From Minisyncoccota bacterium (lineage in GTDB: Bacteria > Patescibacteriota > Minisyncoccia > Phycocordibacterales > JACOZG01), in assembly GCA_020057185.1 (NCBI GenBank), contig JAGVGK010000005.1, positions 1-63,841 on the forward strand: 63,841 bases of DNA. The letters are read 5' to 3'. Position 1 is the stretch's first letter, and each line of letters opens with the position of its first letter. A model generated the notes under the pieces. That model searched no databases, was not told the origin of the DNA, and saw only the letters and a program-made list of their open reading frames with translations. Positions 207-60,448 of this stretch are shown in pieces. Made by a program: the position numbers and the translations under genes.

Positions 207-2573
207 CTATTGATTTAACCCGTGGCACTTTTTATATTTTTTGCCGGAACCGCAGGGGCAGGGGTCATTGCGCCCGACTTTTTTGATATTGCCGGCTGAT
301 GATGGCGCGACTAGATTAATTATTGGATTACGCAAGGTCGAACCTTGCGTTGCTAGCTGCTTCACTGCCGTGGCCACATCGTCCGCCATGGTCGCTTCCA
401 TTTGTTTGAAAAGTTGCAATCCCTCTCGTTTATATTCCACCAACGGATCGCGCTGACCATAAGCACGCAAGCGGACACTCTGCTTGAGATAATCCATCGC
501 TTCGAGATGATCCACCCACAGTCGATCAATCGCTTGGAGTGTAATTTGCCGATCCGGACTATCGCTAAAAAGAATGGCCTGCCGGCGACCGTACATAATC
601 ACCCGCTGATAATTCAAAACCGTATCATATTCGAGCAACTGCCGACGGGAGTCGAAGTTGAAACCTTCGATCTTGGCTTGCGCACTTTCAATCGCGCGCG
701 CCACCAAACGATTCTCAATCGGCTGATCATCCGGCACCCCGAGCCGGCGCATCATGGATTTAACTTTATCAGAGACAAACACTCGCGCCAAACTATCATC
801 GAAGGAAATAAAAAATTGCGTCGTGCCCGGATCGCCCTGCCGGCCGGACCGACCCCGAAGTTGATTATCAATCCGACGCGCCTCATGACGCTCGGTGCCT
901 AAAACAAAAAGTCCACCGAGACGGCGCACTTCGTCGAGCTCGGTTTCTGTCGCCTTCGCTCCGCCCAACTTGATGTCTACGCCACGACCAGCCAAGTTCG
1001 TGGCAATCACCACGCTCCCCTTCCGCCCCGCTTCAGCAATGATGGCGCCTTCTTCTTCATGATTCTTGGCGTTCAAGAGACGATGGGGCACACCTTCACG
1101 TGTGAGATAAGCCGAGACCAATTCGTTTTTATCAATCGACACGGTGCCGACGAGAACGGGCTGACCCAATTGATGAAGTTCCTTCAATCGTCGCGCCACG
1201 GCCACAAATTTCCCCGCTTCGGTTTGGAAGACTAAATCTGTGAGATCAGTTCGTTGGCTTGGACGATTAGTCGGCACCGCCACCACCTCGAGACCATAGA
1301 CTTTTCGAAACTCCTCGGCGGAAGTTAAGGCCGTGCCGGTCATACCCGCGAGCTTCCCGTAAAGCTTGAAATAATTTTGAAGTGTCACGCTGGCGTAAGT
1401 TCGAGATTCGTCTTTCGTCGCGACACCCTCCTTCGCTTCAATCGCTTGATGTAAACCATCAGACCACCGGCGACCGGGCTGAAGCCGACCGGTGAATTCG
1501 TCCACGATAATCACTTCGCCACCTTTAACCACATAATCATGATCGCGGTGGAAAAGCGCTTTGGCGCGCAACGCCGTCTCGAGGTGGTGAACATATTTAA
1601 TTCCTAAATCAGTATAAAGATTATCCACTTTCAATGATTTTTCGGTGCGGGCAATTCCTTCTTCTGTCACGCTAATTGTCTTCAATTTCTCATCGACCGT
1701 ATAATCCGTCACTGGTTCGTAATTATTAACGAGTTTAGCGAAAATTTGGTACAAACTATCCGAAGCGGCGACCGGCGCCGAAATAATAAGCGGGGTGCGC
1801 GCTTCGTCAATCAAGACCGAATCCACTTCATCCACGATGGCAAAGTGATGTTTGGGCCTGGCGGGCAGAATAATTTGCGAGACTTGGTCAGTTTGATAAG
1901 CTAGATTGTCACGAAGATAATCAAAACCGAATTCGTTGTTCGTGCCATAAGTGATGTCGGCTTCATAGGCTTCGCGCCGAGTGCACGGTTTTAGAAATTC
2001 ATGAAAAACTTGATAACCGCCACTCTGATCGCGCGCGGGATCAACTTCGCTGTGTGCCGAATCATAACGATAAGCCGTCTCGTGATTGATCACGCCGACC
2101 GATAAACCGAGCGCATCATAAATTTGTCCCATCCACACCGCATCCCGGCGCGCCAAGTAATCATTAACAGTGACCACATGCACCCCGCGCGCCGATAGAG
2201 CATTGAGATAAGCCGTGAGCGTTGTGACTAAAGTTTTCCCTTCACCCGTTTTCATCTCGGCAATTTTCCCTTGGTGCAAAATTATTCCGCCGAGCAATTG
2301 AACATCGAAATGTCTCTGCTTGAGCGTCCGCTTGGCGGACTCGCGCACCAGCGCGAAAGCGTGAGGCAATAAATCGTCGAGGGTCTCGCCCGCCTTGCCG
2401 TCGGGCAGGTCCGTCTCTAAACGAGCCCGTAATTTAGCCGTTTCCGCCTTAAGTTCCAAGTCAGAGAGACTGGCAAAACGGGGTTCTAATTCATTGATCT
2501 TAATCACTGTTGGTTCAAGTGATTTCAAGTAGCGGTCATTCCCCGTCCCGAAAATTTTTCCAATAAGTGACAT
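207..2573 (-). CDS. secA: Preprotein translocase ATPase SecA
   Basis: Motor motifs MKTGEGKTLV, DEVDSVLIDEARTPLIIS and TNLAGRGVDIKLGG; C-terminal zinc finger CPCGSGKKYKKCHG. ATG at 2573 (MSLIGKIFG) preferred over the GTG at 2591. Confidence 0.97.
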   Translation of the reverse strand: MSLIGKIFGTGNDRYLKSLEPTVIKINELEPRFASLSDLELKAETAKLRARLETDLPDGKAGETLDDLLPHAFALVRESAKRTLKQRHFDVQLLGGIILHQGKIAEMKTGEGKTLVTTLTAYLNALSARGVHVVTVNDYLARRDAVWMGQIYDALGLSVGVINHETAYRYDSAHSEVDPARDQSGGYQVFHEFLKPCTRREAYEADITYGTNNEFGFDYLRDNLAYQTDQVSQIILPARPKHHFAIVDEVDSVLIDEARTPLIISAPVAASDSLYQIFAKLVNNYEPVTDYTVDEKLKTISVTEEGIARTEKSLKVDNLYTDLGIKYVHHLETALRAKALFHRDHDYVVKGGEVIIVDEFTGRLQPGRRWSDGLHQAIEAKEGVATKDESRTYASVTLQNYFKLYGKLAGMTGTALTSAEEFRKVYGLEVVAVPTNRPSQRTDLTDLVFQTEAGKFVAVARRLKELHQLGQPVLVGTVSIDKNELVSAYLTREGVPHRLLNAKNHEEEGAIIAEAGRKGSVVIATNLAGRGVDIKLGGAKATETELDEVRRLGGLFVLGTERHEARRIDNQLRGRSGRQGDPGTTQFFISFDDSLARVFVSDKVKSMMRRLGVPDDQPIENRLVARAIESAQAKIEGFNFDSRRQLLEYDTVLNYQRVIMYGRRQAILFSDSPDRQITLQAIDRLWVDHLEAMDYLKQSVRLRAYGQRDPLVEYKREGLQLFKQMEATMADDVATAVKQLATQGSTLRNPIINLVAPSSAGNIKKVGRNDPCPCGSGKKYKKCHGLNQ

Positions 2574-2581
2574 AAGGTAAA

Positions 2582-2590
2582 ATCTTAGCA
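2582..2590 (-). promoter_or_regulatory. Extended -10 element TGCTAAGAT, 8 nt upstream of the secA ATG (near-leaderless)
   Basis: Reverse complement of atcttagca. Lies directly after the T-run of the upstream terminator; no Shine-Dalgarno sequence present. Confidence 0.45.
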
Positions 2591-2591
2591 C

Positions 2592-4276: not shown

Positions 4277-5833
4277 TCACGCTTTTAAAAGCTGTCGAAT
4301 TTCTTCGTAGTCCTCGGCGTAGGCGGAGATGATGTTGATTAAACGCTCTTTCGCCACGCCGAGTTGCTCTTTTTCGGCGTCTTTAACTTCGAGTAATTGT
4401 TCGAAACTGAAATGCGCTGTCGAATCCGTGGCCTCTTCCAATTTAACTTCTTGAGTTTGGGCCATAATTAATTCTTCCGCCACACCCAACGGATAACTGG
4501 CAAAAAAAGAATTAAGCGCCCGAATAATATCAAACCCGGGCGCAAGTTTGACTGCCACCATATCGGCAATCACCAGAGTTCGGAAAAAAATCACCACTTC
4601 GCGCGGTAAATAAATTTGGTAATCACGTGTTTTGAGTAAAATTTTTGAAAAAACCAGCGAAGAAGTTAAGTGCTGATAATTAGGTAAAGTTTTCTCTTCA
4701 TACCACGGCGTGAGAATCCCTTCCAAATCAAGTTGTAAATTATCGAGCATAATCTCTTCCAATTTATCAACCACTTTGGCATACCGTTTATAAGTGTCTG
4801 GTTCTTTCAGTTTAAATAAATCAACTTCATCGGCCATCGCCGTCTTCGCAAAATGGAGAAAGTGCTTACTCGAAAAAGCCAGATCGCGCCGAGCGATGCC
4901 GTAAATAATCCGCAAGAGATCCAACCGCGTCTTCCCCACCTGACCGATAATTCCGAAATCGAAATAACCCAACCGATTATTTGAAGCGAAAAAGAGATTC
5001 GCCGGATGCGGATCAGCATGGAAAAAACCATCAATGAAATACTGGCGCATAATGTCAAAAACGAAATAATACGCTAGCTCTTCGGTGTGGATAGAATGGT
5101 TGGTGAGAAGTTCGTCGCGGTATTTCGGATTTTTTTCCAATTCTTTAAGCACCGTTTCCACTGAAAAGACTTCCGCCATATCTTCACTGACTAACACTCG
5201 CTCAGTGGACCACTCGGCGTAAGCTCGCGGGATAATCGTCCGCGGATGACTTTCGCTATGACGCGCGAGAATTTGCGAATTGGTTAACTCCTCGCGGAAA
5301 TCGAGTTCGCGCCGACTCCAAGCGATAAATTCTTTGACCACATCTTGAATTTGGAAAGTATTAAATAAACGGAAAAAACTAAGGAGTCGGCCGAGAACGC
5401 GCGCCAACAAAAAATCAGTCTCGAAAACTTGACGGATTGCCGGCCGTTGAATTTTGACCACAACGGGAGTGCCGTCGGACAACCGCGCGCGGTAAACTTG
5501 AGAGATCGACGCCGAGGCAATTGGTTTGGATTCGAATTTTTGAAAAACGGCTTCCGGCGGTTGGCCGATTTCGTCAATAAAAACTTGGCGCATCGCCGAG
5601 TACGGCGACACCCTGATTCGCGACAAGAGATTAAGCAACTCATTCGCGTACCGAGGTGGAATGAGATCGTGACGAAGCGAAAGAATTTGTCCGAGTTTGA
5701 CGAACGCCCCACCCGCTTGCTCGAAGAAAAGTCGCAGGCGGACTTCCGGCGTTACTTCCCGTTTTAATAACAACCGGATACTAATCCGACCAATGTCCCA
5801 AAATCTGGTTAAAAAATCTAGCCCGCTCATCAT
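4277..5833 (-). CDS. ubiB: ABC1/UbiB-family atypical protein kinase
   Basis: Motifs PIASASISQVYRA, VVVKIQRP, HADPHPANLF, FDFGIIG. Confidence 0.9.
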   Translation of the reverse strand: MMSGLDFLTRFWDIGRISIRLLLKREVTPEVRLRLFFEQAGGAFVKLGQILSLRHDLIPPRYANELLNLLSRIRVSPYSAMRQVFIDEIGQPPEAVFQKFESKPIASASISQVYRARLSDGTPVVVKIQRPAIRQVFETDFLLARVLGRLLSFFRLFNTFQIQDVVKEFIAWSRRELDFREELTNSQILARHSESHPRTIIPRAYAEWSTERVLVSEDMAEVFSVETVLKELEKNPKYRDELLTNHSIHTEELAYYFVFDIMRQYFIDGFFHADPHPANLFFASNNRLGYFDFGIIGQVGKTRLDLLRIIYGIARRDLAFSSKHFLHFAKTAMADEVDLFKLKEPDTYKRYAKVVDKLEEIMLDNLQLDLEGILTPWYEEKTLPNYQHLTSSLVFSKILLKTRDYQIYLPREVVIFFRTLVIADMVAVKLAPGFDIIRALNSFFASYPLGVAEELIMAQTQEVKLEEATDSTAHFSFEQLLEVKDAEKEQLGVAKERLINIISAYAEDYEEIRQLLKA

Positions 5834-5985
5834 TTCGAGCGGAAACCGATATAGGCCAGAATAACCGTAATCGCCATAACGAAGAAAAAGAAAATTTCGG
5901 GATCGGTGAGACGATTCGAAACCATTAGAATCGAAGCCGAGATCCAGATAAATAAAATAGCAACGGAAGTCCAGGTGTAACGCAT
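5830..5985 (-). CDS. Small two-TM membrane protein (51 aa, MRYTWTSVAILFIWIS...)
   Basis: ATG at 5985. Stop overlaps the ubiB start (ATGA). Paralogue of 2834..3001. Confidence 0.55.
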   Translation of the reverse strand: MRYTWTSVAILFIWISASILMVSNRLTDPEIFFFFVMAITVILAYIGFRSK

Positions 5986-9991: not shown

Positions 9992-10662
9992 TATTTCTGT
10001 TTTAATACACTCCAAAATTCACCCCAATTAATCTGGTAAGATTCGATTTCCCAACCAGACTCTTTAGTCTCTTTTTCTACATCTTCTAAGGTATACTCAA
10101 GATAATGGGTATCATCCAACTTGTATGGGTAACCATTATCCCGTTTATAAACGGCTACCCATTCACGGGTGATCATAGGCACACGAAGTAAAAGGGTGTC
10201 ACCGAAGAAACCAATTTTTTTAAGTAAGTTAATTCTATCTTCAATGTGCTCAAGAACATTGGACAAAATCAATTTATCAAAATGATTATTGAAGTGATAA
10301 ACGGTAGCGTCACCCACAATAAATTCGAGATTATCTTTTTGGTAATGCTTCTTGGCATAATCAATATTTTGGTCAGAGATATCTATTCCAACTACTTTCT
10401 TCGCTTTCTTGGCCACATCGCAGGCTAACAATCCCCCGCCACAACCAATGTCTAAGATCGTGTCGCCCGGATTGATTCTTGCAGTAAAATAATCGTGATA
10501 TTTGGTGATCTTATGTTTGGGATTAATTCCCCCATTCAAATTGGTAGCATATTCAGTAATTTTTTTATAACTATAATTATGAAGTTTAATGAAAAATCCC
10601 AACAATCGCCTTGTAAACTTAGGCTGATTTTTGATATAACTTTTAATTTTATTTTTAATCAT
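9991..10662 (-). CDS. Class I SAM-dependent methyltransferase
   Basis: ILDIGCGGGLLA and LILSNVLEHI. Confidence 0.85.
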   Translation of the reverse strand: MIKNKIKSYIKNQPKFTRRLLGFFIKLHNYSYKKITEYATNLNGGINPKHKITKYHDYFTARINPGDTILDIGCGGGLLACDVAKKAKKVVGIDISDQNIDYAKKHYQKDNLEFIVGDATVYHFNNHFDKLILSNVLEHIEDRINLLKKIGFFGDTLLLRVPMITREWVAVYKRDNGYPYKLDDTHYLEYTLEDVEKETKESGWEIESYQINWGEFWSVLKQK

Positions 10663-42206: not shown

Positions 42207-43202
42207 TCATTGTAATAATTCAATAACACCCTTGGCAACATTGGCAAAATCTTGCCCGATTATTCGCACCCCAACTTCTCTCGCCACACCGACATCGGTC
42301 GAAACAATTTTACAACCTGCCGCTTGGGTTTCGACTAAAGTCATGCCATAACCCTCATACAGTGAAGTGACAAGAAACAGATCGCAAGTTTTATAATAAG
42401 AATACAGTGTTTCTTGATTGACCCAATTTTCAAAAATAATACTAGCTTCTAGCTTATAGCTTATAGCTTTTAGCTTCAAAATTTTTTCTTCTGGTCCGGA
42501 GCCAACAATTATCAACCCTATTCTCCTATTCGCGCGAATTAGAGAAGACACTGCTTCGATTGCCAAATCAATATTTTTTTCTTTAGTTAAACGCGAAGCC
42601 ATTAAAATTATTTTATCAAATTGCTGATATTTTTTATGCAAGTCTACCGTGATTGGTGTATTTTTAATTTTCTCTATGTCTACAAAAATCGGCCGTATTT
42701 CAATTTCAGCTTTTATCCGCCAGCTGGCGGATTTTAGAAAATCAGCAATTCGTTGGCTAACAACACGAATTTTGTCGGCTTTAGGTAATAAGAATTTGGC
42801 GAGCAGAAACCGAATTTTATTCTTGAACGATTCCTGCCAAAAATACGGACTGCCAATATCGGTATGGATTTGAAGTTCAAGTTGGGCTAATTCCCGACGC
42901 GAGATTAACCAACCTGTTAATCCTGATTCGAATGGATCTTGGCAAGTAACCAAATCAATTTTTAGTTTAAGTTTCTTAACTAATTTTACCGCATCAAAAA
43001 TGTAAAATAATTTTAATCTGGAATTAGTGGGATAAATCCAAAGTTTAGGTGAAATTTGAGCAGAGACAAGACCGAGAGATTTTTGGGCAAATACTATTAT
43101 ATGTGTCTCGTCAACCAAGTTTGCATAGCCAATTATCCGCTCGCGTACCGCGCTCGCGGGTTGAAACAAATTTCGATCCGAGCCGATACTTAAAATTTTC
43201 AT
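42207..43202 (-). CDS. Glycosyltransferase family 4 (carries a heptamer-array insert)
   Basis: SLYEGYGMTLVETQAAGCKIVSTDVG. Confidence 0.85.
   Translation of the reverse strand: MKILSIGSDRNLFQPASAVRERIIGYANLVDETHIIVFAQKSLGLVSAQISPKLWIYPTNSRLKLFYIFDAVKLVKKLKLKIDLVTCQDPFESGLTGWLISRRELAQLELQIHTDIGSPYFWQESFKNKIRFLLAKFLLPKADKIRVVSQRIADFLKSASWRIKAEIEIRPIFVDIEKIKNTPITVDLHKKYQQFDKIILMASRLTKEKNIDLAIEAVSSLIRANRRIGLIIVGSGPEEKILKLKAISYKLEASIIFENWVNQETLYSYYKTCDLFLVTSLYEGYGMTLVETQAAGCKIVSTDVGVAREVGVRIIGQDFANVAKGVIELLQ
42443..42477. repeat. Five tandem heptamers: tagcttc tagctta tagctta tagcttt tagcttc, in-frame in the GT4 gene
   Basis: Read directly. Encodes LKLKAISYKLEA on the minus strand. Confidence 0.95.
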
Positions 43203-44176
43203 ATCTTAATGACTAAATCTAAAAATTCCCGCGCTAGCTCTGACCAAGAATGTTCAAAATTAAAATTAGTGATTTTTTTAATTTGTGTCTCATAATTATT
43301 TTTATCACTTAACCACAACAATTTTCCTTCAACATCGGCCAGATTAAGCGGGTTAATGTATATGCCAATTTCACCCAAACGATCTTGTATACCATTTTCT
43401 TCGGTCAAAATAAAAGGCTTATTACAACGAATCGCGTCCAAAACAATGTTCGGACTGATTTCGGACACCGACGGGACAATGAGACCATAACAACTTCTGA
43501 TTTTTTCTGTTAATTTCTCCGGCGACCATTGACCAATTTCAAAAACAAAATTTAAAGGTTTGAGAATATCAAAATTTTTCAATTTTAAATTGCGTCCAGC
43601 TGATATAAAAACTTTTTGTTCTGGCTCGTTGGAAACTTCTTTTCTACCATAATAATTTTCGATAATTTTTGTTTTGGATAAATCTAAATTATATGGTTTC
43701 GCCCAAATTTGCCTCTGCCAATCAGTGCTAAAAACTATTAAACTAGACTGTTTCAAAATCCAACGAGTTAGTTTGAAAATAAGACGCTCTTTGAAATTGA
43801 AATTCGGAATTTCAGTTTGATAGAAATTGCGTAATAAAACAAGTTTACCGGTTCGTTCAACATAGTTTTCCCACAAGAAATCCCCGCCGGTGCGAATAAT
43901 CGTTTTTTTGCCCAATAGTCGACCAGCCATAACAGATGGCAAACCGACACTGAAAGTGTCGAGAGTTAAACACCAATCAGCCCAATGCAAAGTGGGGAAG
44001 ATTTTAAAAAAATAAAAGATATGTCGTAAACCACTCGGCCAGTGTTTAACATCCGAAAATTTAATCACTCGAACCTCATGGCCAAGTTTCTGAAATTCTC
44101 GTTCCAAATTAAATGCGTACTGCGCCGGACCACCAATGTCCGGTGGATAAATACCAGTGGCGATTAGGATTTTCAT
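43199..44176 (-). CDS. GT-B fold glycosyltransferase
   Basis: MKILIATGIYPPDIGGPAQY N-terminus and a degenerate E-x7-E region. Confidence 0.7.
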   Translation of the reverse strand: MKILIATGIYPPDIGGPAQYAFNLEREFQKLGHEVRVIKFSDVKHWPSGLRHIFYFFKIFPTLHWADWCLTLDTFSVGLPSVMAGRLLGKKTIIRTGGDFLWENYVERTGKLVLLRNFYQTEIPNFNFKERLIFKLTRWILKQSSLIVFSTDWQRQIWAKPYNLDLSKTKIIENYYGRKEVSNEPEQKVFISAGRNLKLKNFDILKPLNFVFEIGQWSPEKLTEKIRSCYGLIVPSVSEISPNIVLDAIRCNKPFILTEENGIQDRLGEIGIYINPLNLADVEGKLLWLSDKNNYETQIKKITNFNFEHSWSELAREFLDLVIKI

Positions 44177-45264
44177 AGTGATAGAAGACTTCTCATTTGT
44201 TTAGCAATAATTTCCCAATTGTACTTATTCAGAACCATTTGACGAGCTTCGTTAATAACTTGCTTCACCTTGTCGTGATTGGTCGGATCCAAAATATATT
44301 GCACTTTCTCGGCGACACTTTTGGGATTGTCCGCTTCACAGAACCAGCCCGTGACACCGTCGGTTAGAAAGTCCGGGATCCCCCCTACTGGCGTACCAAC
44401 CACCGGCACGCCCGCCGCCATCGCTTCGAGAAACGAATTACCGAGTCCTTCAGACCGTGAGGGTCGCACAAACACATCGGCTTGAGCGAGATAATTTGAT
44501 ACTTCATTTGGTGGGACATGACCGAGAAATTCAATCCGAGCTTGTAGCTTGTAGCTTGCCTGCCCGACGGCAAGGCGGGTAGCTTGTAGCTTTAAATTTT
44601 TCTCTTCAATCCCACCACCGAGAATCTGAAGTCTTATATTATCCGGCAAAAAACGCATCGCTTCAATTAAAATATCTACGCCATTTTTCTTCACCAATCG
44701 CCCCGTGTGAATAATTACCAGGTTAGCTTTTAGCTTGTAGCTTTTAGCTTGTAGCTTAAATTTATCCAAATCTACCCCATTAGGAATTACCGTAATCGGA
44801 CAGCGTGCCCCCATCGTTCGCGCCCACGCGCCGAGATAATTAGAAATAACTTGGATGTGATCGGCCACTTTAAAAACCCTAAAAATTCTCGGTAAAAGTA
44901 ATCTCAAACGATACGCCCAGCTATTTAGATCATCCCCTTCTTGCAAAGTTAAAAGAAACGGCACAGTTAGAAAACGACGCTTGAAAAGCGCGCCGGCCAT
45001 CCCCGCCTGATTGGCCATAATCGCCCAAATTGCGTCGTAGGGCTTAATTTTATGTCTTCTTGAGGCTTCTCGGTAAGCCCAGAACGGATAAGAATATTTA
45101 GACCAAAAATTTCTAATGTCGGCGTGGATAATTTCAAACTGAAATTCCGGCAATCCTGCCTTGTCGGCAGACAGGCGATCGGTAATCTCTTTCACCGCCA
45201 CTTCGGCTCCGCCGACAAAGGGGAAATAAGCAAGAGAAAAAATTAAGATTCGAGGCGTCGACAT
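44173..45264 (-). CDS. Glycosyltransferase family 4 (carries three repeat-element inserts)
   Basis: SRSEGLGNSFLEAMAAGVPVVGTPVGG. Confidence 0.85.
   Translation of the reverse strand: MSTPRILIFSLAYFPFVGGAEVAVKEITDRLSADKAGLPEFQFEIIHADIRNFWSKYSYPFWAYREASRRHKIKPYDAIWAIMANQAGMAGALFKRRFLTVPFLLTLQEGDDLNSWAYRLRLLLPRIFRVFKVADHIQVISNYLGAWARTMGARCPITVIPNGVDLDKFKLQAKSYKLKANLVIIHTGRLVKKNGVDILIEAMRFLPDNIRLQILGGGIEEKNLKLQATRLAVGQASYKLQARIEFLGHVPPNEVSNYLAQADVFVRPSRSEGLGNSFLEAMAAGVPVVGTPVGGIPDFLTDGVTGWFCEADNPKSVAEKVQYILDPTNHDKVKQVINEARQMVLNKYNWEIIAKQMRSLLSL
44538..44593. repeat. Composite element: 3 heptamer units + a 21-nt palindromic insert + 2 heptamer units
   Basis: gagcttg tagcttg tagcttg [cctgcccgacggcaaggcggg] tagcttg tagcttt. 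Encodes LKLQATRLAVGQASYKLQA. Confidence 0.9.
44724..44758. repeat. Five tandem heptamers: tagcttt tagcttg tagcttt tagcttg tagctta
   Basis: Read directly. Encodes KLQAKSYKLKA. Confidence 0.95.
45155..45176. repeat. 22-nt imperfect palindrome cctgccttgtcggcagacaggc, identical to 53504..53525
   Basis: Exact 22/22 match read by eye. Encodes LSADKAG in the same frame at both sites. Confidence 0.95.
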
Positions 45265-52270: not shown

Positions 52271-52308
52271 CCCCGCCTACATCTGCAAAGTTGTGGCGGG
52301 GATTTTTA
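52271..52308 (+). terminator. Intrinsic terminator between convergent genes
   Basis: CCCCGCC-17 nt-GGCGGGG followed by ATTTTTATT. Confidence 0.7.
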
Positions 52309-53622
52309 TTCCAATTTTTTCACCAGCTTTACAAACTGGGCACCACGGTCGTATTCATTTTTAAATCCGCCAGGTGGCGGACCAAAAGACGCAAACCCCG
52401 GACTTAAAAGTAAAATATCGCCAGTCTTAGCTATTGTTACCCCTAATTCAACCGCCTCTTTTAAATCCTCAACTTCTCTATACTTTAAATTTTTCATTTT
52501 GAGTTTTAAGTTCTTCGTCCCCGTTCCAGGCAATAAAATAATTTCTTTACAATATTTAGGTAAAGTTTTAATTAAAATATCTAACGGCAAATTTTTATCC
52601 GCGCCACCCATGATTAGAATAATATCTTTCTTTTCCCCGCCCAATGCTTCCAACGCCACCTTCAAAGCATCGGGAGTGGTGGAAGTGGTGTCGTTATAAA
52701 TCTTAATCCCCCGCCAAGTGCGGATGGGTTCCAAACGCCCAGCGACTCCAGTGAAATTCTCCACGGTCTGCTTAATCAGTTTTTCCGGAATCTCTAAAAT
52801 TCTAGCGACCGCGACCGCACAAGCCGCATTGATCCGGTTGTGCTCACCCAAGATTTTTAGCTTCCAACTTTTAGGCAACTCTTCAACCTTCTCTCCCCGC
52901 ACTAGATGATCTTCTGGCTTCTGATACTTAAAAATATTTTCTTTATCAGATAAATACTTTTTCATATCACCGTGGTAATAATTAAAGTGATCAGCCATAA
53001 AGTTAGTAAACACCGCAATATCTGGGCTGATTTTTAAATCGCCGAAACCTTGCAACTGCCACGAATCAAGTTCTAAGACCACCCAATCGCCCAATTTAAC
53101 TTTCGGCAACAACGCGAGTGTCGAAACACCCAAAATATTTCCGCCCAGCCACACCTTCCCAACCTGTTTTAAAATTTCATAAATCAAGCTCGTCACTGTC
53201 GTTTTGCCTCTTGTGCCGGTCACACCAATTATTTTCGCGCCCAATGATTGAGCAAATTTTACGAACAACGCCGTGCTCATCATCACCGGAATTTTATTTT
53301 TCTTAGCTTCGGCGATATAAGGCGAATCAAGTGGCACACCCGCAGCTTTGATAATCAAATCGCGGTGCTGAAAATCTTGAAGTCGGTGTTTACCCAGAAC
53401 ATAAGTAATAGCTTTTAGGTTATAGCTTCTAGCTTTTAGCTTCTTTAGCGAAGGAGACAAATCTTTGGCTGATTTCAAATCAGTCACAATAAGTTCAGCA
53501 CCACCTGCCTTGTCGGCAGACAGGCACTCCGCTAAAAACTTGGTATCCCCCACCCCGCGACCGAGAAGCCCGAGCCCCATCAGTGTAATTTTCTTCCCTC
53601 GAAAATAATCTCGATAATCCAT
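52306..53622 (-). CDS. murD: UDP-N-acetylmuramoylalanine--D-glutamate ligase (carries two repeat-element inserts)
   Basis: ITLMGLGLLGRG and GVTGTRGKTTVT; Mur ligase layout. Confidence 0.9.
   Translation of the reverse strand: MDYRDYFRGKKITLMGLGLLGRGVGDTKFLAECLSADKAGGAELIVTDLKSAKDLSPSLKKLKARSYNLKAITYVLGKHRLQDFQHRDLIIKAAGVPLDSPYIAEAKKNKIPVMMSTALFVKFAQSLGAKIIGVTGTRGKTTVTSLIYEILKQVGKVWLGGNILGVSTLALLPKVKLGDWVVLELDSWQLQGFGDLKISPDIAVFTNFMADHFNYYHGDMKKYLSDKENIFKYQKPEDHLVRGEKVEELPKSWKLKILGEHNRINAACAVAVARILEIPEKLIKQTVENFTGVAGRLEPIRTWRGIKIYNDTTSTTPDALKVALEALGGEKKDIILIMGGADKNLPLDILIKTLPKYCKEIILLPGTGTKNLKLKMKNLKYREVEDLKEAVELGVTIAKTGDILLLSPGFASFGPPPGGFKNEYDRGAQFVKLVKKLE
53409..53443. repeat. Five tandem heptamers: tagcttt taggtta tagcttc tagcttt tagcttc, in-frame in murD
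   Basis: Read directly. Encodes KLKARSYNLKA. Confidence 0.95.
53504..53525. repeat. 22-nt palindrome cctgccttgtcggcagacaggc in murD, identical to 45155..45176
   Basis: Encodes LSADKAG between AEC and GAELIVTD of the MurD Rossmann region. Confidence 0.95.
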
Positions 53623-56504: not shown

Positions 56505-57839
56505 CTACCCCGTCCAATAATAGGCCATAATACTGAAGTCGACCAAATCAACCTTGCCGTCGCCACTCAAAATCGCTTTTTCTCGCGGAATAAAGTCGGC
56601 AGTCAATGGTCGGTGATACCAATAAGCGGCAATCGAAAAATCAATCAGATTAACGCGACAATCACTGTTGAGATCACCGCGCAACGGGCAACCTTGGTTT
56701 GGTTCAGCCAAAACTGTCGTGGTGCCAACGCGAAAATTGACCACCGCGCCAAATGGACTAATCTCGTTCAGCACCGTGGATTTCGATTTCGTGGTGTGAT
56801 CGCCCTTCTCAATCAGCGTGGTGTCGAAATTATAAAGATAGAGACCGCCGACACCGGCTAAGGTTCTGACAAAAATTTCTTGATTGGAATTGACCGCAAT
56901 CGTCACCGTGCTACTGCCGACCGTCTGACCGAAAATCGCAATGTTATCGCCGTGCGCCACTTCCCGTTTATCCACATCGATCGTCGGTGACAAGAAGATC
57001 CCACTGATATTCGTCATCGCGCCCTTGGTTAGGTAAACCGGAAAAGTGAAAAGCGTCGACCGACGACCTTGATTATCTTCACCATAAACCGCGAAGAGAT
57101 ATTCTCCCGCGGATAAACCAGTCAGCGCGACGGCAAATTTCGCATCCGGACCGGCAATCGTGGTAATCGCAATTTGTCCATCTTTGAGAATTGTCACTTT
57201 GCTTAAAGGATAACCGTAGCCCGAGAGATTAACGCCAGTCGCCGTCACGGTTTCTCCTCCTCCACCACCACCCCCTCCTCCGCCACCACCACCCGAAGAT
57301 ACTGGCGTTGCCGACACTTCGCTCGAAGTGGCAATGGTATTGCTCAACGCATCTTCCGGCCGAATCACAAAATAATACGGCGTACCATTAGTCAAACTAC
57401 TGCGCGTCGTAGAAGTGACATTGCCTAAACTGGTATAACTATATGGCCCGCCGGCGACCGTGGCTTGACCAACATTGTATCCGCCCACCGTCCAACCGAG
57501 CGACGCCGTCACCGCCGACCATGAGAGCGCCACCGATCCGTCGCCGGCGGTCGCCGAGACCACCGGCGTCGCGACGACTGGAAAAAAGAGCCAGGCGCTT
57601 TGCAGACCGAAACCGATCGCCGTGCTGGTACCTAAACCCATCTCGCCGAGCGAGCCGAAAAGTTGGAAATCAGTGGAAGTCGAAAACTGCGCCGGCGCCA
57701 ACACCGGATCAAGGACGCGAAAACTTGATGAAGTGTATTCATCAGCTTGCGCCAAAGAAACAATGCCAAGCACTGCCACTAAATAAAACAGAGCCAGAAA
57801 CTTTTTATTGGAGTTTGTTATCGGTTTTATACTTCTCAA
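56505..57839 (-). CDS. Secreted FN3/Ig-like protein with a poly-Gly linker and C-terminal dockerin
   Basis: Signal peptide, a G13 run, and two dockerin repeats: GDLNSDCRVNLIDFSIAAYW and SGDGKVDLVDFSIMAYYW. Confidence 0.75.
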   Translation of the reverse strand: MRSIKPITNSNKKFLALFYLVAVLGIVSLAQADEYTSSSFRVLDPVLAPAQFSTSTDFQLFGSLGEMGLGTSTAIGFGLQSAWLFFPVVATPVVSATAGDGSVALSWSAVTASLGWTVGGYNVGQATVAGGPYSYTSLGNVTSTTRSSLTNGTPYYFVIRPEDALSNTIATSSEVSATPVSSGGGGGGGGGGGGGETVTATGVNLSGYGYPLSKVTILKDGQIAITTIAGPDAKFAVALTGLSAGEYLFAVYGEDNQGRRSTLFTFPVYLTKGAMTNISGIFLSPTIDVDKREVAHGDNIAIFGQTVGSSTVTIAVNSNQEIFVRTLAGVGGLYLYNFDTTLIEKGDHTTKSKSTVLNEISPFGAVVNFRVGTTTVLAEPNQGCPLRGDLNSDCRVNLIDFSIAAYWYHRPLTADFIPREKAILSGDGKVDLVDFSIMAYYWTG

Positions 57840-59365: not shown

Positions 59366-60448
59366 TTACTGTAACCTCGTCCCCCCGCGGAGGCGAACTC
59401 CACCGCGGAGACGCACGGCTCGGGCATTAGCCGTGACCGAGGGGATATAAGTGATGACAATCACCCCTTGCTTGCCCACTCCTTCAAGAAGTTTTGTCGC
59501 CCCCCCAGCGCCACCACCACCGCCGCCATAACTACCGCCAGCGCCGCCGCCTTTGCCGGCGCTACCACCCCCGCCACCGCCACCAGAACCGGCGAGGGCG
59601 CCAAATTCAATTGCCGTCCATTCAATCGTCCCAGCGCCGCCGGCGGCGCCGGCAAGGGAAGTGCCACCCCCACCACCGCCACCCAAAGTTCCAGCTGACT
59701 CCGCCGCGCCACCACCTTGCCCATTGAAATTATTCCCGCCCGCGCCACCGCTAAGACCATGAAATCCAGATGTCCCACCACCGCCACCACCGCCACCACC
59801 ACCTTCGACACCGCCGGGTTCAGTCGTCGCATTTCCCCCATTGCCACCGGTACCATAAAGACCGCCCGCGCCACCACCACCGCCACTACCATTGGTATCG
59901 CTAACAGTATCTATATTTCCACCCGTCCCGCCATTAAAACAACCACTGCAACTGGCCGGTATTCCAGCCGAGACCAACCCGCCGGCGCCATTAGCCGGAT
60001 CGGATATTAAACCACCACTGCCTCCTTGAGCACAAACCGACATTGTGGAAGCGCACACAAAAGAAGAACCTGAAGTTCGGTTAAACCAGGTATCACCGCC
60101 TTTTTTACCATTACTTCCGCTAGCAACAACCACTGTGGTAGAACCAACTTGATAGGTCACTGATCCCCCAGCTGTCAACCCTGTGAGATTGAAGATAACC
60201 GCATATGCCCCGCCGCCGCCACCGCCACCACCATTAATGTCGCCACCGGTGGTACCGCTATCACCGCCACCGCCACCGGCGCCAATCGCTTCGATGGTGT
60301 TAACCGCCGACCAATCGCTGACCACCGTCCAAGTGCCGGGATCGCCGGAGGTGAGAAAAATTCGCTTAAACGCATTGGCGGGATGGGGGAAGGCGAGCAG
60401 AGCAAATAAAACGAGACAGATACTTTTCCACAGTTTGGGGGTTGACAT
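59366..60448 (-). CDS. Secreted glycine-rich protein
   Basis: Signal peptide (MSTPKLWKSICLVLFALLAFPHPANA), many GGGGGG runs, and C-terminal VRLRGGVRLRGGTRLQ. Confidence 0.7.
   Translation of the reverse strand: MSTPKLWKSICLVLFALLAFPHPANAFKRIFLTSGDPGTWTVVSDWSAVNTIEAIGAGGGGGDSGTTGGDINGGGGGGGGAYAVIFNLTGLTAGGSVTYQVGSTTVVVASGSNGKKGGDTWFNRTSGSSFVCASTMSVCAQGGSGGLISDPANGAGGLVSAGIPASCSGCFNGGTGGNIDTVSDTNGSGGGGGAGGLYGTGGNGGNATTEPGGVEGGGGGGGGGGTSGFHGLSGGAGGNNFNGQGGGAAESAGTLGGGGGGGTSLAGAAGGAGTIEWTAIEFGALAGSGGGGGGGSAGKGGGAGGSYGGGGGGAGGATKLLEGVGKQGVIVITYIPSVTANARAVRLRGGVRLRGGTRLQ

What the first reader, a model, noticed from the sequence alone, without database searches (positions are those of the whole stretch)
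45155..45176. Identical 22-nt palindromic element in a glycosyltransferase gene and in murD
cctgccttgtcggcagacaggc occurs at 45155..45176 and 53504..53525 with a 22/22 match. At both sites it is in the same reading frame and adds LSADKAG. The two host genes are otherwise unrelated.

The element can form CTGCC-ttgtc-GGCAG or outer CCTG/CAGG hairpins. 21 nt is exactly 7 codons. In MurD the insert falls between the first beta-strand/P-loop region and the GAELIVTD strand, where canonical MurD proteins have no such segment as far as I recall.

Identity at the DNA level between non-homologous genes points to a mobile or copy-pasted element rather than protein-level conservation.
Basis: partly seen in the sequence, partly recalled or inferred. 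Interest (0 to 1): 0.75.

Follow-up and report, generated by a model that had tools for sequence, protein, structure and literature searches.

The report
21-base mobile hairpin inside genes
The identical stretch shared by the two unrelated genes is a copy of a 21-base, hairpin-forming mini-element that has been pasted in frame into many genes, essential ones included, in very different bacteria, where it adds seven amino acids to surface loops; how so small an element spreads is unknown.

Summary
CCTGCCTTGTCGGCAGACAGGC occurs exactly twice (45155-45176, 53504-53525). Both copies lie in minus-strand genes, a GT4 glycosyltransferase and MurD, and both are read as LSADKAG.

The insert itself is 21 nt. 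Two MurD orthologues show the empty site at DNA level, and none of 59 MurD homologues has the segment. In GT4 only one Vogelbacteria relative shares it.

The 20-nt core occurs in at least 119 loci of public genomes, where about 1 is expected. Hosts include Bacteroidota, Ignavibacteriota, Patescibacteria, Marinimicrobia and Omnitrophota, with unrelated flanks. About 40% of copies sit inside real genes such as dnaX, mfd and WD40 genes, mostly in the LSADKAG frame.

A sister element (E2, CCCGCCTTGCCGTCGGGCAGG) is also in the window, in SecA (LPDGKAG) and in GT4. It occurs in at least 120 metagenome contigs, inside DnaK, NusA, UvrB, LepA and other housekeeping genes.

Six filled/empty comparisons show 21 nt (or seven residues) added; the five at DNA level show no target duplication. 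Insertions are 22-55 times enriched in tandem heptamer arrays and recur at fixed spots in other hairpin repeats.

Best reading: a non-autonomous, ultra-small copy-and-paste hairpin element, filtered by selection to harmless frames and loops. The mechanism is inferred, not shown. The closest analogues are cyanobacterial SDRs, REPs and Rickettsia RPEs.

The parts
45155..45175 (-). E1 copy in the GT4 glycosyltransferase gene. The coding strand reads CCTGTCTGCCGACAAGGCAGG, giving (R)LSADKAG(L), residues 31-37.
   Evidence: The insert is absent from 58 of 59 GT4 homologues. It is present at the same site in the Vogelbacteria relative (P0122, L121/L108).
53504..53524 (-). E1 copy in murD, read as (C)LSADKAG(G), residues 34-40. 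It lies at the end of helix alpha1 and in the alpha1-beta2 loop.
   Evidence: It is absent from 59 of 59 homologues. An exact 21-nt gap appears in L120 and L122. The AlphaFold2 model shows helix 22-35, loop 36-42 and strand 43-48, with a pLDDT dip to 74.
2389..2409 (-). E2 copy (CCCGCCTTGCCGTCGGGCAGG on +) inside secA, read on the minus strand as LPDGKAG.
   Evidence: The alignment to E. coli SecA structures shows an exact 7-residue gap at this point.
44559..44579 (-). E2 copy in the GT4 gene, in the opposite orientation relative to transcription, read as RLAVGQ(A). It sits between AAGCTAC heptamer units.
   Evidence: The site is empty in the Vogelbacteria relative. That relative instead carries an E2 variant in the other heptamer array of the same gene.
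44538..44558 (-). Heptamer array (AAGCTAC)2 AAGCTCG directly 3' of E2 on the coding strand.
44580..44593 (-). Heptamer array (AAGCTAC)2 directly 5' of E2 on the coding strand.
44725..44757 (-). Second heptamer array of the GT4 gene (AAGCTAN x5, encoding KLQAKSYKLKA). This is the empty E2 site that is filled in the relative.
53410..53443 (-). Heptamer array in murD (AAGCTAN-like x5, encoding KLKARSYNLKA), 61 nt from E1. Its length varies among orthologues.
   Evidence: pLDDT dips to 67 at residues 61-70.
42444..42477 (-). Heptamer array in a third gene, the glycosyltransferase at 42207..43202 (encoding KLKAISYKLEA).
44173..45264 (-). Host gene: GT4-family glycosyltransferase (363 aa).
   Evidence: Pfam PF00534, PF13439 and PF13579, precomputed.
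52306..53622 (-). Host gene: murD, UDP-N-acetylmuramoylalanine--D-glutamate ligase (438 aa).
207..2591 (-). Host gene: secA (794 aa).

Best explanation
The shared sequence is two copies of a 21-nt, GC-rich, imperfect-hairpin insertion element (E1). It belongs to a family of very small dispersed repeats; the sister element E2 is present twice in the same window.

Shown:
- Each copy is a clean 21-nt addition with no target-site duplication.
- The element is present or absent at otherwise orthologous or paralogous sites.
- The same 21 letters occur in hundreds of unrelated places in low-GC bacteria of several phyla.
- Intragenic copies are translated in frame (7 codons, no stop in any of the six frames). 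They are strongly filtered to the Cys-free, hydrophilic frames LSADKAG/LPDGKAG and, where tested here, fall at loops or at gaps against solved structures.

Inferred:
- The element encodes nothing and is copied and pasted by machinery supplied in trans.
- This most likely proceeds through a single-stranded hairpin intermediate that is inserted into transiently single-stranded or structured DNA: loops and arms of other hairpin repeats, slipped heptamer arrays, replication forks.
- In logic this resembles REP/RAYT or IS200/IS605-type HUH systems, which also leave no duplication.
- Within this genome the murD copy is a younger insertion. It may have been copied from the older GT4 copy or from another copy elsewhere in the genome.

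The responsible enzyme is not identified.
For: Identity and statistics:
- Two exact copies against 0 expected.
- At least 119 genome loci for the 20-nt core, about 1 expected. Flanks are unrelated; only -1 (C, 92%; first base of the 21-mer) and -2 (G, 71%) stand out.

Filled versus empty sites, 21 nt or 7 residues each:
- murD against L120 and L122.
- WD40 repeats of L047: 5 filled repeats, and 5 that run cccgg/cttg|ccgctggcc with no element.
- Hairpin pair in L057.
- Two reciprocal E2 sites in GT4, window against Vogelbacteria.
- SecA against E. coli SecA, a 7-residue gap.

Orthologues:
- 0 of 59 MurD and 1 of 59 GT4 homologues carry the insert.

Hosts are real and unrelated:
- E1: propeller regulator, alpha-2-macroglobulin, DnaX, Mfd, type IIG restriction-modification enzyme.
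- E2: SecF, PheT, DnaK (two sites), NusA, GatB, LepA, UvrB.

Frame filter:
- E1: 17 loci LSADKAG, 5 PALSADR, and 1-3 in each Cys-containing frame.
- E2: 51 of 72 LPDGKAG.

Target bias:
- Five genomes carry E1 at the same GAAG^CAATC spot, in the same orientation.
- A period-7 context is found at 5% (E1) and 14% (E2) of sites, against a 0.25% background.

Structure:
- The G.U-containing 6-8 bp stem forms only on one strand.
- A compensatory T>C/A>G change keeps the inner stem in the diverged copy of L243.

No recurrent neighbouring gene family other than common large ones was found.
Against: - No transposase or other candidate enzyme was found or could be searched for genome-wide.
- Three sequence-unrelated hairpin families (E1, E2, and E3 in relatives) share the length of exactly 21 nt. 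Insertions also cluster in heptamer arrays. Both facts point to a length- or register-measuring process rather than sequence recognition.
- The REP-defining GTAG/CGTC end tag is missing.
- Letter-perfect identity across phyla needs repeated horizontal transfer, yet neither element occurs in 2.9 million viral contigs.
- Hairpin stability of the DNA form is modest (z = -1.5 to -2.2).
- A few high-GC hits of E1 (8 loci) and about 17 of E2 could be codon-bias coincidences.
Confidence: 0.6

Rival explanations
1. Enzyme-free spread. The hairpins are copied by polymerase template switching or slipped-strand events that work in 7-nt steps. The same process would generate and expand the heptamer arrays. 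Any stable 21-nt (3 x 7) hairpin can then be duplicated to stalled, structured sites.
For: - Three unrelated hairpin families all measure 21 nt.
- 7-aa inserts form a local peak in the MurD indel spectrum.
- Heptamer arrays of at least 8 different unit sequences are 22-55 times enriched as hosts.
- No target duplication is seen.
- Junctions show 1-nt ambiguity: G before the element in 74% of E1 sites and C after it in 46%.
- No associated gene was found.
- Heptamers have been proposed as the polymerase slippage unit (Mrazek 2007, as summarised in PMC4679880).
Against: - Copying from an ectopic locus with only 1 nt of microhomology should be very rare.
- It should also give ragged ends, yet the boundaries are exact in hundreds of copies.
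- It does not explain why two particular sequences dominate across phyla, with few intermediates.
- It does not explain the fixed position and orientation in the GAAG^CAATC and GAGCG^GAGTCGAAGG hairpins.
Confidence: 0.2
2. The element is kept because it does something useful. It could be an RNA or DNA hairpin acting as a regulatory, pausing, processing or protein-binding site, or a beneficial loop peptide. Its spread would then reflect selection, not selfish copying.
For: - The coding-strand RNA hairpin is significantly stable (z = -3.4).
- One orientation is favoured in genes.
- The stem is maintained by a compensatory change in L243.
- The GT4 copy is unchanged between two genomes whose proteins are 75% identical.
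Against: - Hosts and positions are unrelated, and about half of the copies are intergenic.
- The insert is missing from nearly all orthologues of each host gene.
- Copies occur in both orientations and in several frames.
- The surrounding GT4 N-terminal DNA is itself about 90% identical between the two genomes. An unchanged 21-mer is therefore not unusual, with probability about 0.1.
- No Rfam family matches.
Confidence: 0.07
3. The 21 nt are a mini-intron or intervening sequence that is removed from the RNA, so the protein never contains LSADKAG.
For: - The element also sits inside tRNA-Arg gene copies, in the D-arm (L177), where translation is irrelevant.
- It forms a hairpin at RNA level.
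Against: - The strong restriction of intragenic copies to a 3n length and to Cys-free, stop-free frames is what translation predicts, not splicing.
- Inserts fall in surface loops.
- An intact tRNA-Arg gene lies beside the interrupted copies.
- From general knowledge, no bacterial system is known that splices 21-nt hairpins.
Confidence: 0.03
4. Chance, codon-usage convergence on a peptide motif, or an assembly or sequencing artefact.
For: E2 is 81% GC and uses the preferred codons of high-GC genomes. About 17 of its metagenome hits are in contigs of 62-74% GC, and some belong to one protein family (YLPDGKAG).
Against: - Zero matches are expected in the window.
- E1-bearing loci have a median GC of 0.38.
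- Copies occur in isolate genomes (Algoriphagus, Eudoraea, Arenibacter, Echinicola, Croceitalea) and in long-read chromosomes.
- Copies occur in all contexts and frames.
- Exact presence/absence pairs exist.
Confidence: 0.02

Closest known systems
Small dispersed repeats (SDR1-8) of Nostocaceae cyanobacteria (Elhai et al. 2008, Genome Res 18:1484). The paper is not held here, so details are from memory; it is cited in PMC5861425, PMC3116915 and PMC2884548.
   Same: - Length class: 21-27 nt there, 21 nt here.
- Near-identical dispersed copies and no coding capacity.
- Insertion inferred from filled and empty orthologous sites.
- Insertion into other short repeats or palindromes. SDR5 was reported to use HIP1 as an insertion site.
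- From memory, an association with tandem heptamer repeats.
- Mechanism unknown.
   Different: - SDRs were reported only in Nostocaceae, whereas E1 and E2 occur in Bacteroidota, Ignavibacteriota, Patescibacteria and other phyla.
- A large share of E1/E2 copies (about 40-65%) is inside genes and translated, including essential genes.
- Sequence relatedness to SDR1-8 could not be tested.
REP / REPIN elements mobilised by RAYT transposases (Di Nocera et al. 2013, PMC3733652; Bertels and Rainey 2011, PMC3116915).
   Same: - Imperfect palindromes of 20-40 nt.
- No target duplication.
- Occasional in-frame copies inside genes, including DNA-repair genes.
- A single-strand hairpin logic is plausible.
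   Different: - No GTAG or CGTC tag at one end.
- Not predominantly extragenic.
- Not arranged as inverted pairs.
- Not species-specific.
- No RAYT gene seen.
Rickettsia palindromic elements (RPE; Ogata et al. 2000, from memory; mentioned in PMC3733652).
   Same: Selfish palindromic DNA inserted in frame into functional protein genes, tolerated because it encodes benign surface segments.
   Different: - RPEs are about 100-150 nt and confined to Rickettsia.
- E1 and E2 are 21 nt and span several phyla.
MITEs (reviewed in PMC10969869).
   Same: Non-autonomous, dispersed, with inverted-repeat ends.
   Different: MITEs are 50-500 bp, derive from IS elements and make target-site duplications. None of this applies here.
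GC clusters of yeast mitochondrial DNA (from memory).
   Same: GC-rich palindromic mini-elements spreading in an AT-rich genome, occasionally in frame in a protein gene (var1).
   Different: They occur in a eukaryotic organelle, are 30-60 nt, and belong to different sequence families.
Long simple-sequence heptamer repeats in prokaryotes (Mrazek 2007; the TAACTGA repeats of MacGregor 2015, PMC4679880).
   Same: - Tandem heptamer arrays with a sporadic, cross-phylum distribution.
- Suspected link to polymerase slippage.
- These arrays are the preferred hosts of E1 and E2.
   Different: - Those reports concern intergenic arrays.
- Here the arrays lie inside genes in multiples that keep the frame, and they carry a 21-nt hairpin insert.

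Membership tests
REP / REPIN (RAYT-associated) | Imperfect palindrome of 20-40 nt | tested here: met
   The element is 21 nt. Two alternative stems of 5-8 bp form.
REP / REPIN (RAYT-associated) | Conserved unpaired GTAG or CGTC tetranucleotide at one end (PMC3733652) | tested here: not met
   E1 contains neither tag. E2 contains CGTC only in its loop, not as an end tag. This follows directly from the sequences.
REP / REPIN (RAYT-associated) | Mostly extragenic, often in inverted pairs, family specific to a species or genus | tested here: not met
   53 of 126 E1 copies and 72 of 109 E2 copies lie in long ORFs. Copies are mostly singletons. The identical sequence occurs in several phyla.
REP / REPIN (RAYT-associated) | Cognate RAYT (Y1 HUH transposase) gene in the genome, flanked by REPs | not testable with these tools
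   Only 64 kb of this genome and 8-kb flanks of other loci were available. Clustering of 1335 neighbouring ORFs gave no recurrent family beyond the two largest, which were checked and are common large ones.
Small dispersed repeats (SDR, Elhai 2008) | 21-27 nt, dispersed, near-identical copies without coding capacity | tested here: met
Small dispersed repeats (SDR, Elhai 2008) | Mobility inferred from presence or absence at orthologous sites; nesting in other short repeats | tested here: met
   Nesting in CCTGCC..GGCAGG hairpins and in heptamer arrays is shown.
Small dispersed repeats (SDR, Elhai 2008) | Sequence belongs to SDR1-8; host is a Nostocaceae cyanobacterium | tested here: not met
   Among the listed hits no host is a cyanobacterium. 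SDRs were reported absent outside Nostocaceae (PMC5861425). Sequence comparison was not possible because the paper is not held.
Rickettsia palindromic elements | Palindromic element of about 100-150 nt inserted in frame in Rickettsia genes | tested here: not met
   The in-frame insertion is met, but length (21 nt) and host are not.
MITE | Terminal inverted repeats of an IS element plus a target-site duplication | tested here: not met
   No duplication appears in the five DNA-level filled/empty comparisons. Flanking direct repeats occur only as pre-existing heptamer arrays.
Known structured RNA families (Rfam 15) | Match to a covariance model at gathering score | tested here: not met
   0 matches in the window and in 18 E1-bearing loci.

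The most novel reading that the evidence does not exclude
E1, E2 and E3 may be members of a previously undescribed, pan-bacterial class of 21-nt hairpin elements. They would propagate without any element-encoded protein, by a mechanism that measures DNA in 7-nt steps. The same process would build tandem heptamer arrays. Together these would continually remodel surface loops of essential proteins (SecA, MurD, DnaK, NusA, DnaX, UvrB) in small-genome CPR bacteria and in Bacteroidota.
Probability: 0.2. Interest if true: 0.85.

Novelty: new variant of a known kind. Interest (0 to 1): 0.74.

Why it matters
If this reading is right, these would be among the smallest elements showing the signatures of mobility: 21 nt, with no target duplication and no coding capacity.

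- They are letter-identical in phyla as far apart as Bacteroidota and Patescibacteria.
- They are tolerated inside core housekeeping genes, where they add a fixed seven-residue loop.

This opens a concrete route to an old question: how sub-100-nt repeats such as SDRs, REPs and heptamer arrays move. There are many filled/empty site pairs, a sharp target bias (heptamer arrays and fixed positions in other hairpins), and cultured hosts in which a trap assay is possible (Algoriphagus, Eudoraea, Arenibacter, Echinicola).

There are practical consequences as well. The inserts explain part of the length variation of CPR proteins. They can break domain-model hits: MurD copies with an insert in this loop lack the PF21799 hit. 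They also offer natural permissive sites for loop engineering.

Tried and rejected
- **Literature:** Searches for the sequence strings, the peptides and descriptive terms found nothing on this element. The Elhai 2008 SDR paper is not held.
- **Phage vector:** Neither E1 nor E2 has an exact match in viral contigs.
- **Known RNA:** Rfam found nothing.
- **Target-site duplication:** Flanking direct repeats of 4-10 nt were tested. Only k = 7 is enriched, and those cases are tandem heptamer arrays that exist independently of the element. The idea of a 14-nt core plus a 7-nt duplication fails on the murD junction.
- **Stem extension into the flanks:** Watson-Crick pairing of positions -1/+1 to -4/+4 is at the level expected by chance. 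Only 16 of 119 sites sit directly inside another perfect stem.
- **Linked gene:** All-against-all clustering of 1335 neighbouring ORFs gave no recurrent family beyond the two largest (propeller and T9SS-tail proteins, identified by Pfam).
- **DNA-level selection on the GT4 copy:** The flanking DNA is too conserved (about 90%) for 21 of 21 identity to be informative.
- **Window gene records:** Look-ups of the window's GT4 and SecA proteins in the contig index found no record.
- **Not attempted:** A degenerate family pattern for a collection scan was dropped because thousands of chance hits were expected.
Full report
**1. Observation**

The 22-mer CCTGCCTTGTCGGCAGACAGGC is present exactly at 45155-45176 and 53504-53525. 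There are no other matches with up to three mismatches, and none in 100 shuffles. The flanks are unrelated.

Both copies lie in minus-strand ORFs. One is a GT4-family glycosyltransferase (44173..45264) and the other is MurD (52306..53622). Both are read in the same frame as LSADKAG.

The closest public relative is a Candidatus Vogelbacteria MAG, JAZDGA010000026.1. Its MurD is 75% identical and the genes are syntenic. The window therefore comes from a Patescibacteria (CPR) genome of about 42% GC.

**2. It is an insertion of exactly 21 nt**

- None of the 59 closest MurD homologues (53-77% identity) has the segment. They read FLAEC-GA(D/E)LIVTD.
- At DNA level two orthologues (L120, L122) show the empty site ...GA(A/G)T^GTGG.... 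The window has 21 extra bases there, with a one-base G ambiguity.
- In GT4 the insert is found only in the window and the Vogelbacteria relative. The other 58 homologues read ITDRL-------PEF.
- An AlphaFold2 model of the window MurD (pLDDT 91) places the seven residues at the end of helix 22-35 and in the loop before strand 43-48. Confidence dips locally there.

**3. The same 21 letters are scattered over many bacteria**

The 20-nt core has at least 119 exact loci in one-genome-per-species GTDB contigs. A uniform base-composition model predicts about 1.

Hosts are mostly Bacteroidota. They also include:

- Ignavibacteriota/Chlorobiota
- Saccharibacteria, Gottesmanbacteria, Paceibacterota and Vogelbacteria
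- Neomarinimicrobiota, Omnitrophota and Bdellovibrionales
- cultured isolates and long-read chromosomes

The median GC of the loci is 0.38. Eight high-GC loci could be coincidences. Flanks are unrelated apart from a preference for WG before the element and a pyrimidine after it.

In L047 a WD40-repeat gene carries the element in 5 of its repeats, while 5 others are exact empty sites. In L057 two adjacent copies of a CATTGCGA...GAAGCAATC hairpin differ by precisely the 21 nt.

**4. A family, not a single sequence**

A sister element, E2 (CCCGCCTTGCCGTCGGGCAGG), has two exact copies in the window.

- One is in secA, read as LPDGKAG. It corresponds to an exact 7-residue gap against E. coli SecA structures.
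- One is in the GT4 gene, in the other orientation, read as RLAVGQ. It sits between AAGCTAC heptamer units.

A regex for CCYG-N13-CRGG with GC of at least 0.6 finds only these four copies in the window.

Between the window and the Vogelbacteria relative, E2 occupies different heptamer arrays of the same gene. This gives two reciprocal filled/empty pairs of exactly 21 nt.

In low-GC contigs it sits in frame in SecF, PheT, DnaK (two different sites), NusA, GatB, HsdM, LepA, MiaB-MiaA and UvrB. About 17 E2 hits in contigs of 62-74% GC may be codon-bias coincidences.

Relatives carry a third, sequence-unrelated 21-nt hairpin, TGTCAAGGGTTACCCTTGACA and variants, in MurD. Seven-residue inserts form a local peak in the MurD indel spectrum.

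**5. Copies in genes are translated and filtered**

E1 hosts elsewhere are real and unrelated. They include a propeller regulator, T9SS-tail proteins, alpha-2-macroglobulin, DnaX, FG-GAP/ASPIC, Mfd and a type IIG restriction-modification enzyme.

No frame of E1 or E2 contains a stop codon; this follows directly from the sequences. Of the six frames of E1 only LSADKAG and PALSADR lack cysteine.

- Among well-embedded intragenic E1 copies, 17 loci use LSADKAG and 5 use PALSADR. Each Cys-containing frame has 1-3, several of them in high-GC loci.
- For E2, 51 of 72 use LPDGKAG and 10 use RLAVGQ.

This pattern is what selection on a translated peptide predicts. It argues against removal of the insert at the RNA level.

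**6. Targets are not random**

- Five genomes carry E1 at the same GAAG^CAATC position of one hairpin-repeat family, always in the same orientation. Several others carry it at GAGCG^GAGTCGAAGG.
- The reconstructed empty sites have period-7 structure in 6 of 112 (E1) and 16 of 111 (E2) cases. The background in the same loci is about 0.25%, and other periods give 0-2 cases.
- The arrays have many different units: AAGCTAC, TCGGATT, TTGGAAA, TATTTGA, CAATTAC, CAAAAAG, CAACTTA, TATCAAG. Sequence homology therefore cannot explain the association.
- The MurD alpha1-beta2 loop is a hot spot. P0005 and P0011 carry other GC-rich palindromic inserts there.
- A 55%-identical MurD (P0071, L243) carries a diverged 21-nt E1-like element at the very same nucleotide. 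It differs by six transitions. Two of them, T7>C and A19>G, are compensatory and keep the inner stem CYGCC/GGCRG.

**7. Structure**

As RNA the coding-strand version of E1 folds into an 8-bp stem containing G.U pairs (-12.5 kcal/mol, z = -3.4). The complementary strand and the DNA forms are weaker.

E1 and E2 both have their single stem irregularity as G.U(T) on the same strand and as C.A on the other. This is a weak hint (two cases) of a single-stranded intermediate of defined polarity.

**8. What it is and how it probably works**

Shown:

- a dispersed 21-nt insertion family
- exact boundaries and no target duplication
- turnover between related genomes
- translation-compatible filtering
- target bias for structured or repetitive DNA

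Inferred: non-autonomous copy-and-paste through a single-stranded hairpin intermediate, driven by a factor supplied in trans. In logic this would resemble REP/RAYT or IS200/IS605 systems; from general knowledge these act on single-stranded hairpins and make no duplications. I give this about 0.45 on its own.

A polymerase template-switch process working in a 7-nt register is the main rival. It accounts better for the fixed length of 21 nt and for the heptamer association. It accounts worse for the exact ends, the dominance of two sequences across phyla and the fixed target positions.

No candidate enzyme was found. The two largest neighbouring ORF families are common large ones and nothing else recurs widely. 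No phage carries the elements.

**9. Comparison with known families**

- The closest analogue in behaviour is the cyanobacterial SDR class: 21-27 nt, mobile, nested, mechanism unknown. These were reported only in Nostocaceae, and their sequences could not be compared.
- REPs share size, palindromy and occasional intragenic copies. E1 and E2 lack the defining GTAG/CGTC end tag. They are not mainly extragenic, not paired and not species-specific.
- RPEs share the in-frame lifestyle but are 5-7 times longer and confined to Rickettsia.
- MITE criteria are not met.
- No paper in the searchable library mentions the sequences or peptides.

I therefore file this as a new variant of a known kind (very small dispersed palindromic repeats). 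Three features are unusual: identity across phyla, high intragenic occupancy including essential genes, and a 21-nt/heptamer register.

**10. Verdict**

The finding is real and non-trivial, and it opens onto a wider phenomenon than the two copies noticed.

Noticed in passing
window 2389-2409 and 44559-44579: A second 21-nt element (E2, CCCGCCTTGCCGTCGGGCAGG) has two exact copies. One is in secA (LPDGKAG) and one in the GT4 gene (RLAVGQ). It also occurs in at least 120 metagenome contigs.
   Followed up: yes
window 42444-42477, 44538-44558, 44580-44593, 44725-44757, 53410-53443: Tandem heptamer arrays (AAGCTAN)n lie inside three genes and encode KLKA/SYKL-type peptides. Their length varies among orthologues. 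In some homologues heptamer-coded peptide replaces ordinary sequence without any change in length.
   Followed up: partly
L121 10475-10495 (Vogelbacteria MurD); the L122 MurD gene: A third, sequence-unrelated 21-nt hairpin family (TGTCAAGGGTTACCCTTGACA / TGGCAAGGGTCGCCCTTGACA, encoding CQGLPLT / WQGSPLT) is inserted at another MurD loop in relatives. It is absent from the window.
   Followed up: partly
L177 5295-5410, 5660-5745, 5888-5975 (metagenome contig OEIU01000395.1): tRNA-Arg(CCT) gene copies are interrupted in the D-arm. The interruption is E2 followed by an E2 derivative with 8-9 extra bases in its loop. An intact tRNA-Arg gene lies at 5782-5855.
   Followed up: partly
L243 (MurD of a GW2011 Parcubacteria, P0071); window 53504-53524: A 21-nt E1-like element (CTTGTCCGCCGATGAGGCGGA, encoding LSADEAD) sits at exactly the same nucleotide of murD in a 55%-identical orthologue. 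Closer orthologues lack any insert. This means either repeated insertion at one hot spot or an ancient insert with many precise losses.
   Followed up: partly
L121 about 10090-10140 (Vogelbacteria MurD); P0011: The same MurD alpha1-beta2 loop carries other GC-rich nested palindromic inserts in relatives (RAVAPARTERGSARSG; VAQLPRAGLVPVQAPP).
   Followed up: no
L107, L119, L049, L117, L031: Several E1 copies have short partial duplications of one end, giving LSAD-LSADKAG or KAG-KAG peptides (for example E1 followed by TCGGCAGACAGG, or CCTGCCTTGC followed by E1). These may be slippage or traces of repeated events.
   Followed up: no
window 57247-57293 and 59505-60286: Long runs of CCACCNCC-type repeats on the + strand encode Gly-rich stretches of large minus-strand surface-protein-like ORFs. 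They appear to be ordinary low-complexity coding repeats.
   Followed up: no
MurD homologue table: P0001, P0005, P0011 and P0071, which carry an insert in the alpha1-beta2 loop, lack the precomputed PF21799 (MurD-like_N) hit that most of the listed homologues have. Several homologues without an insert in that loop lack it too. The mini-inserts may therefore break domain-model matches.
   Followed up: no
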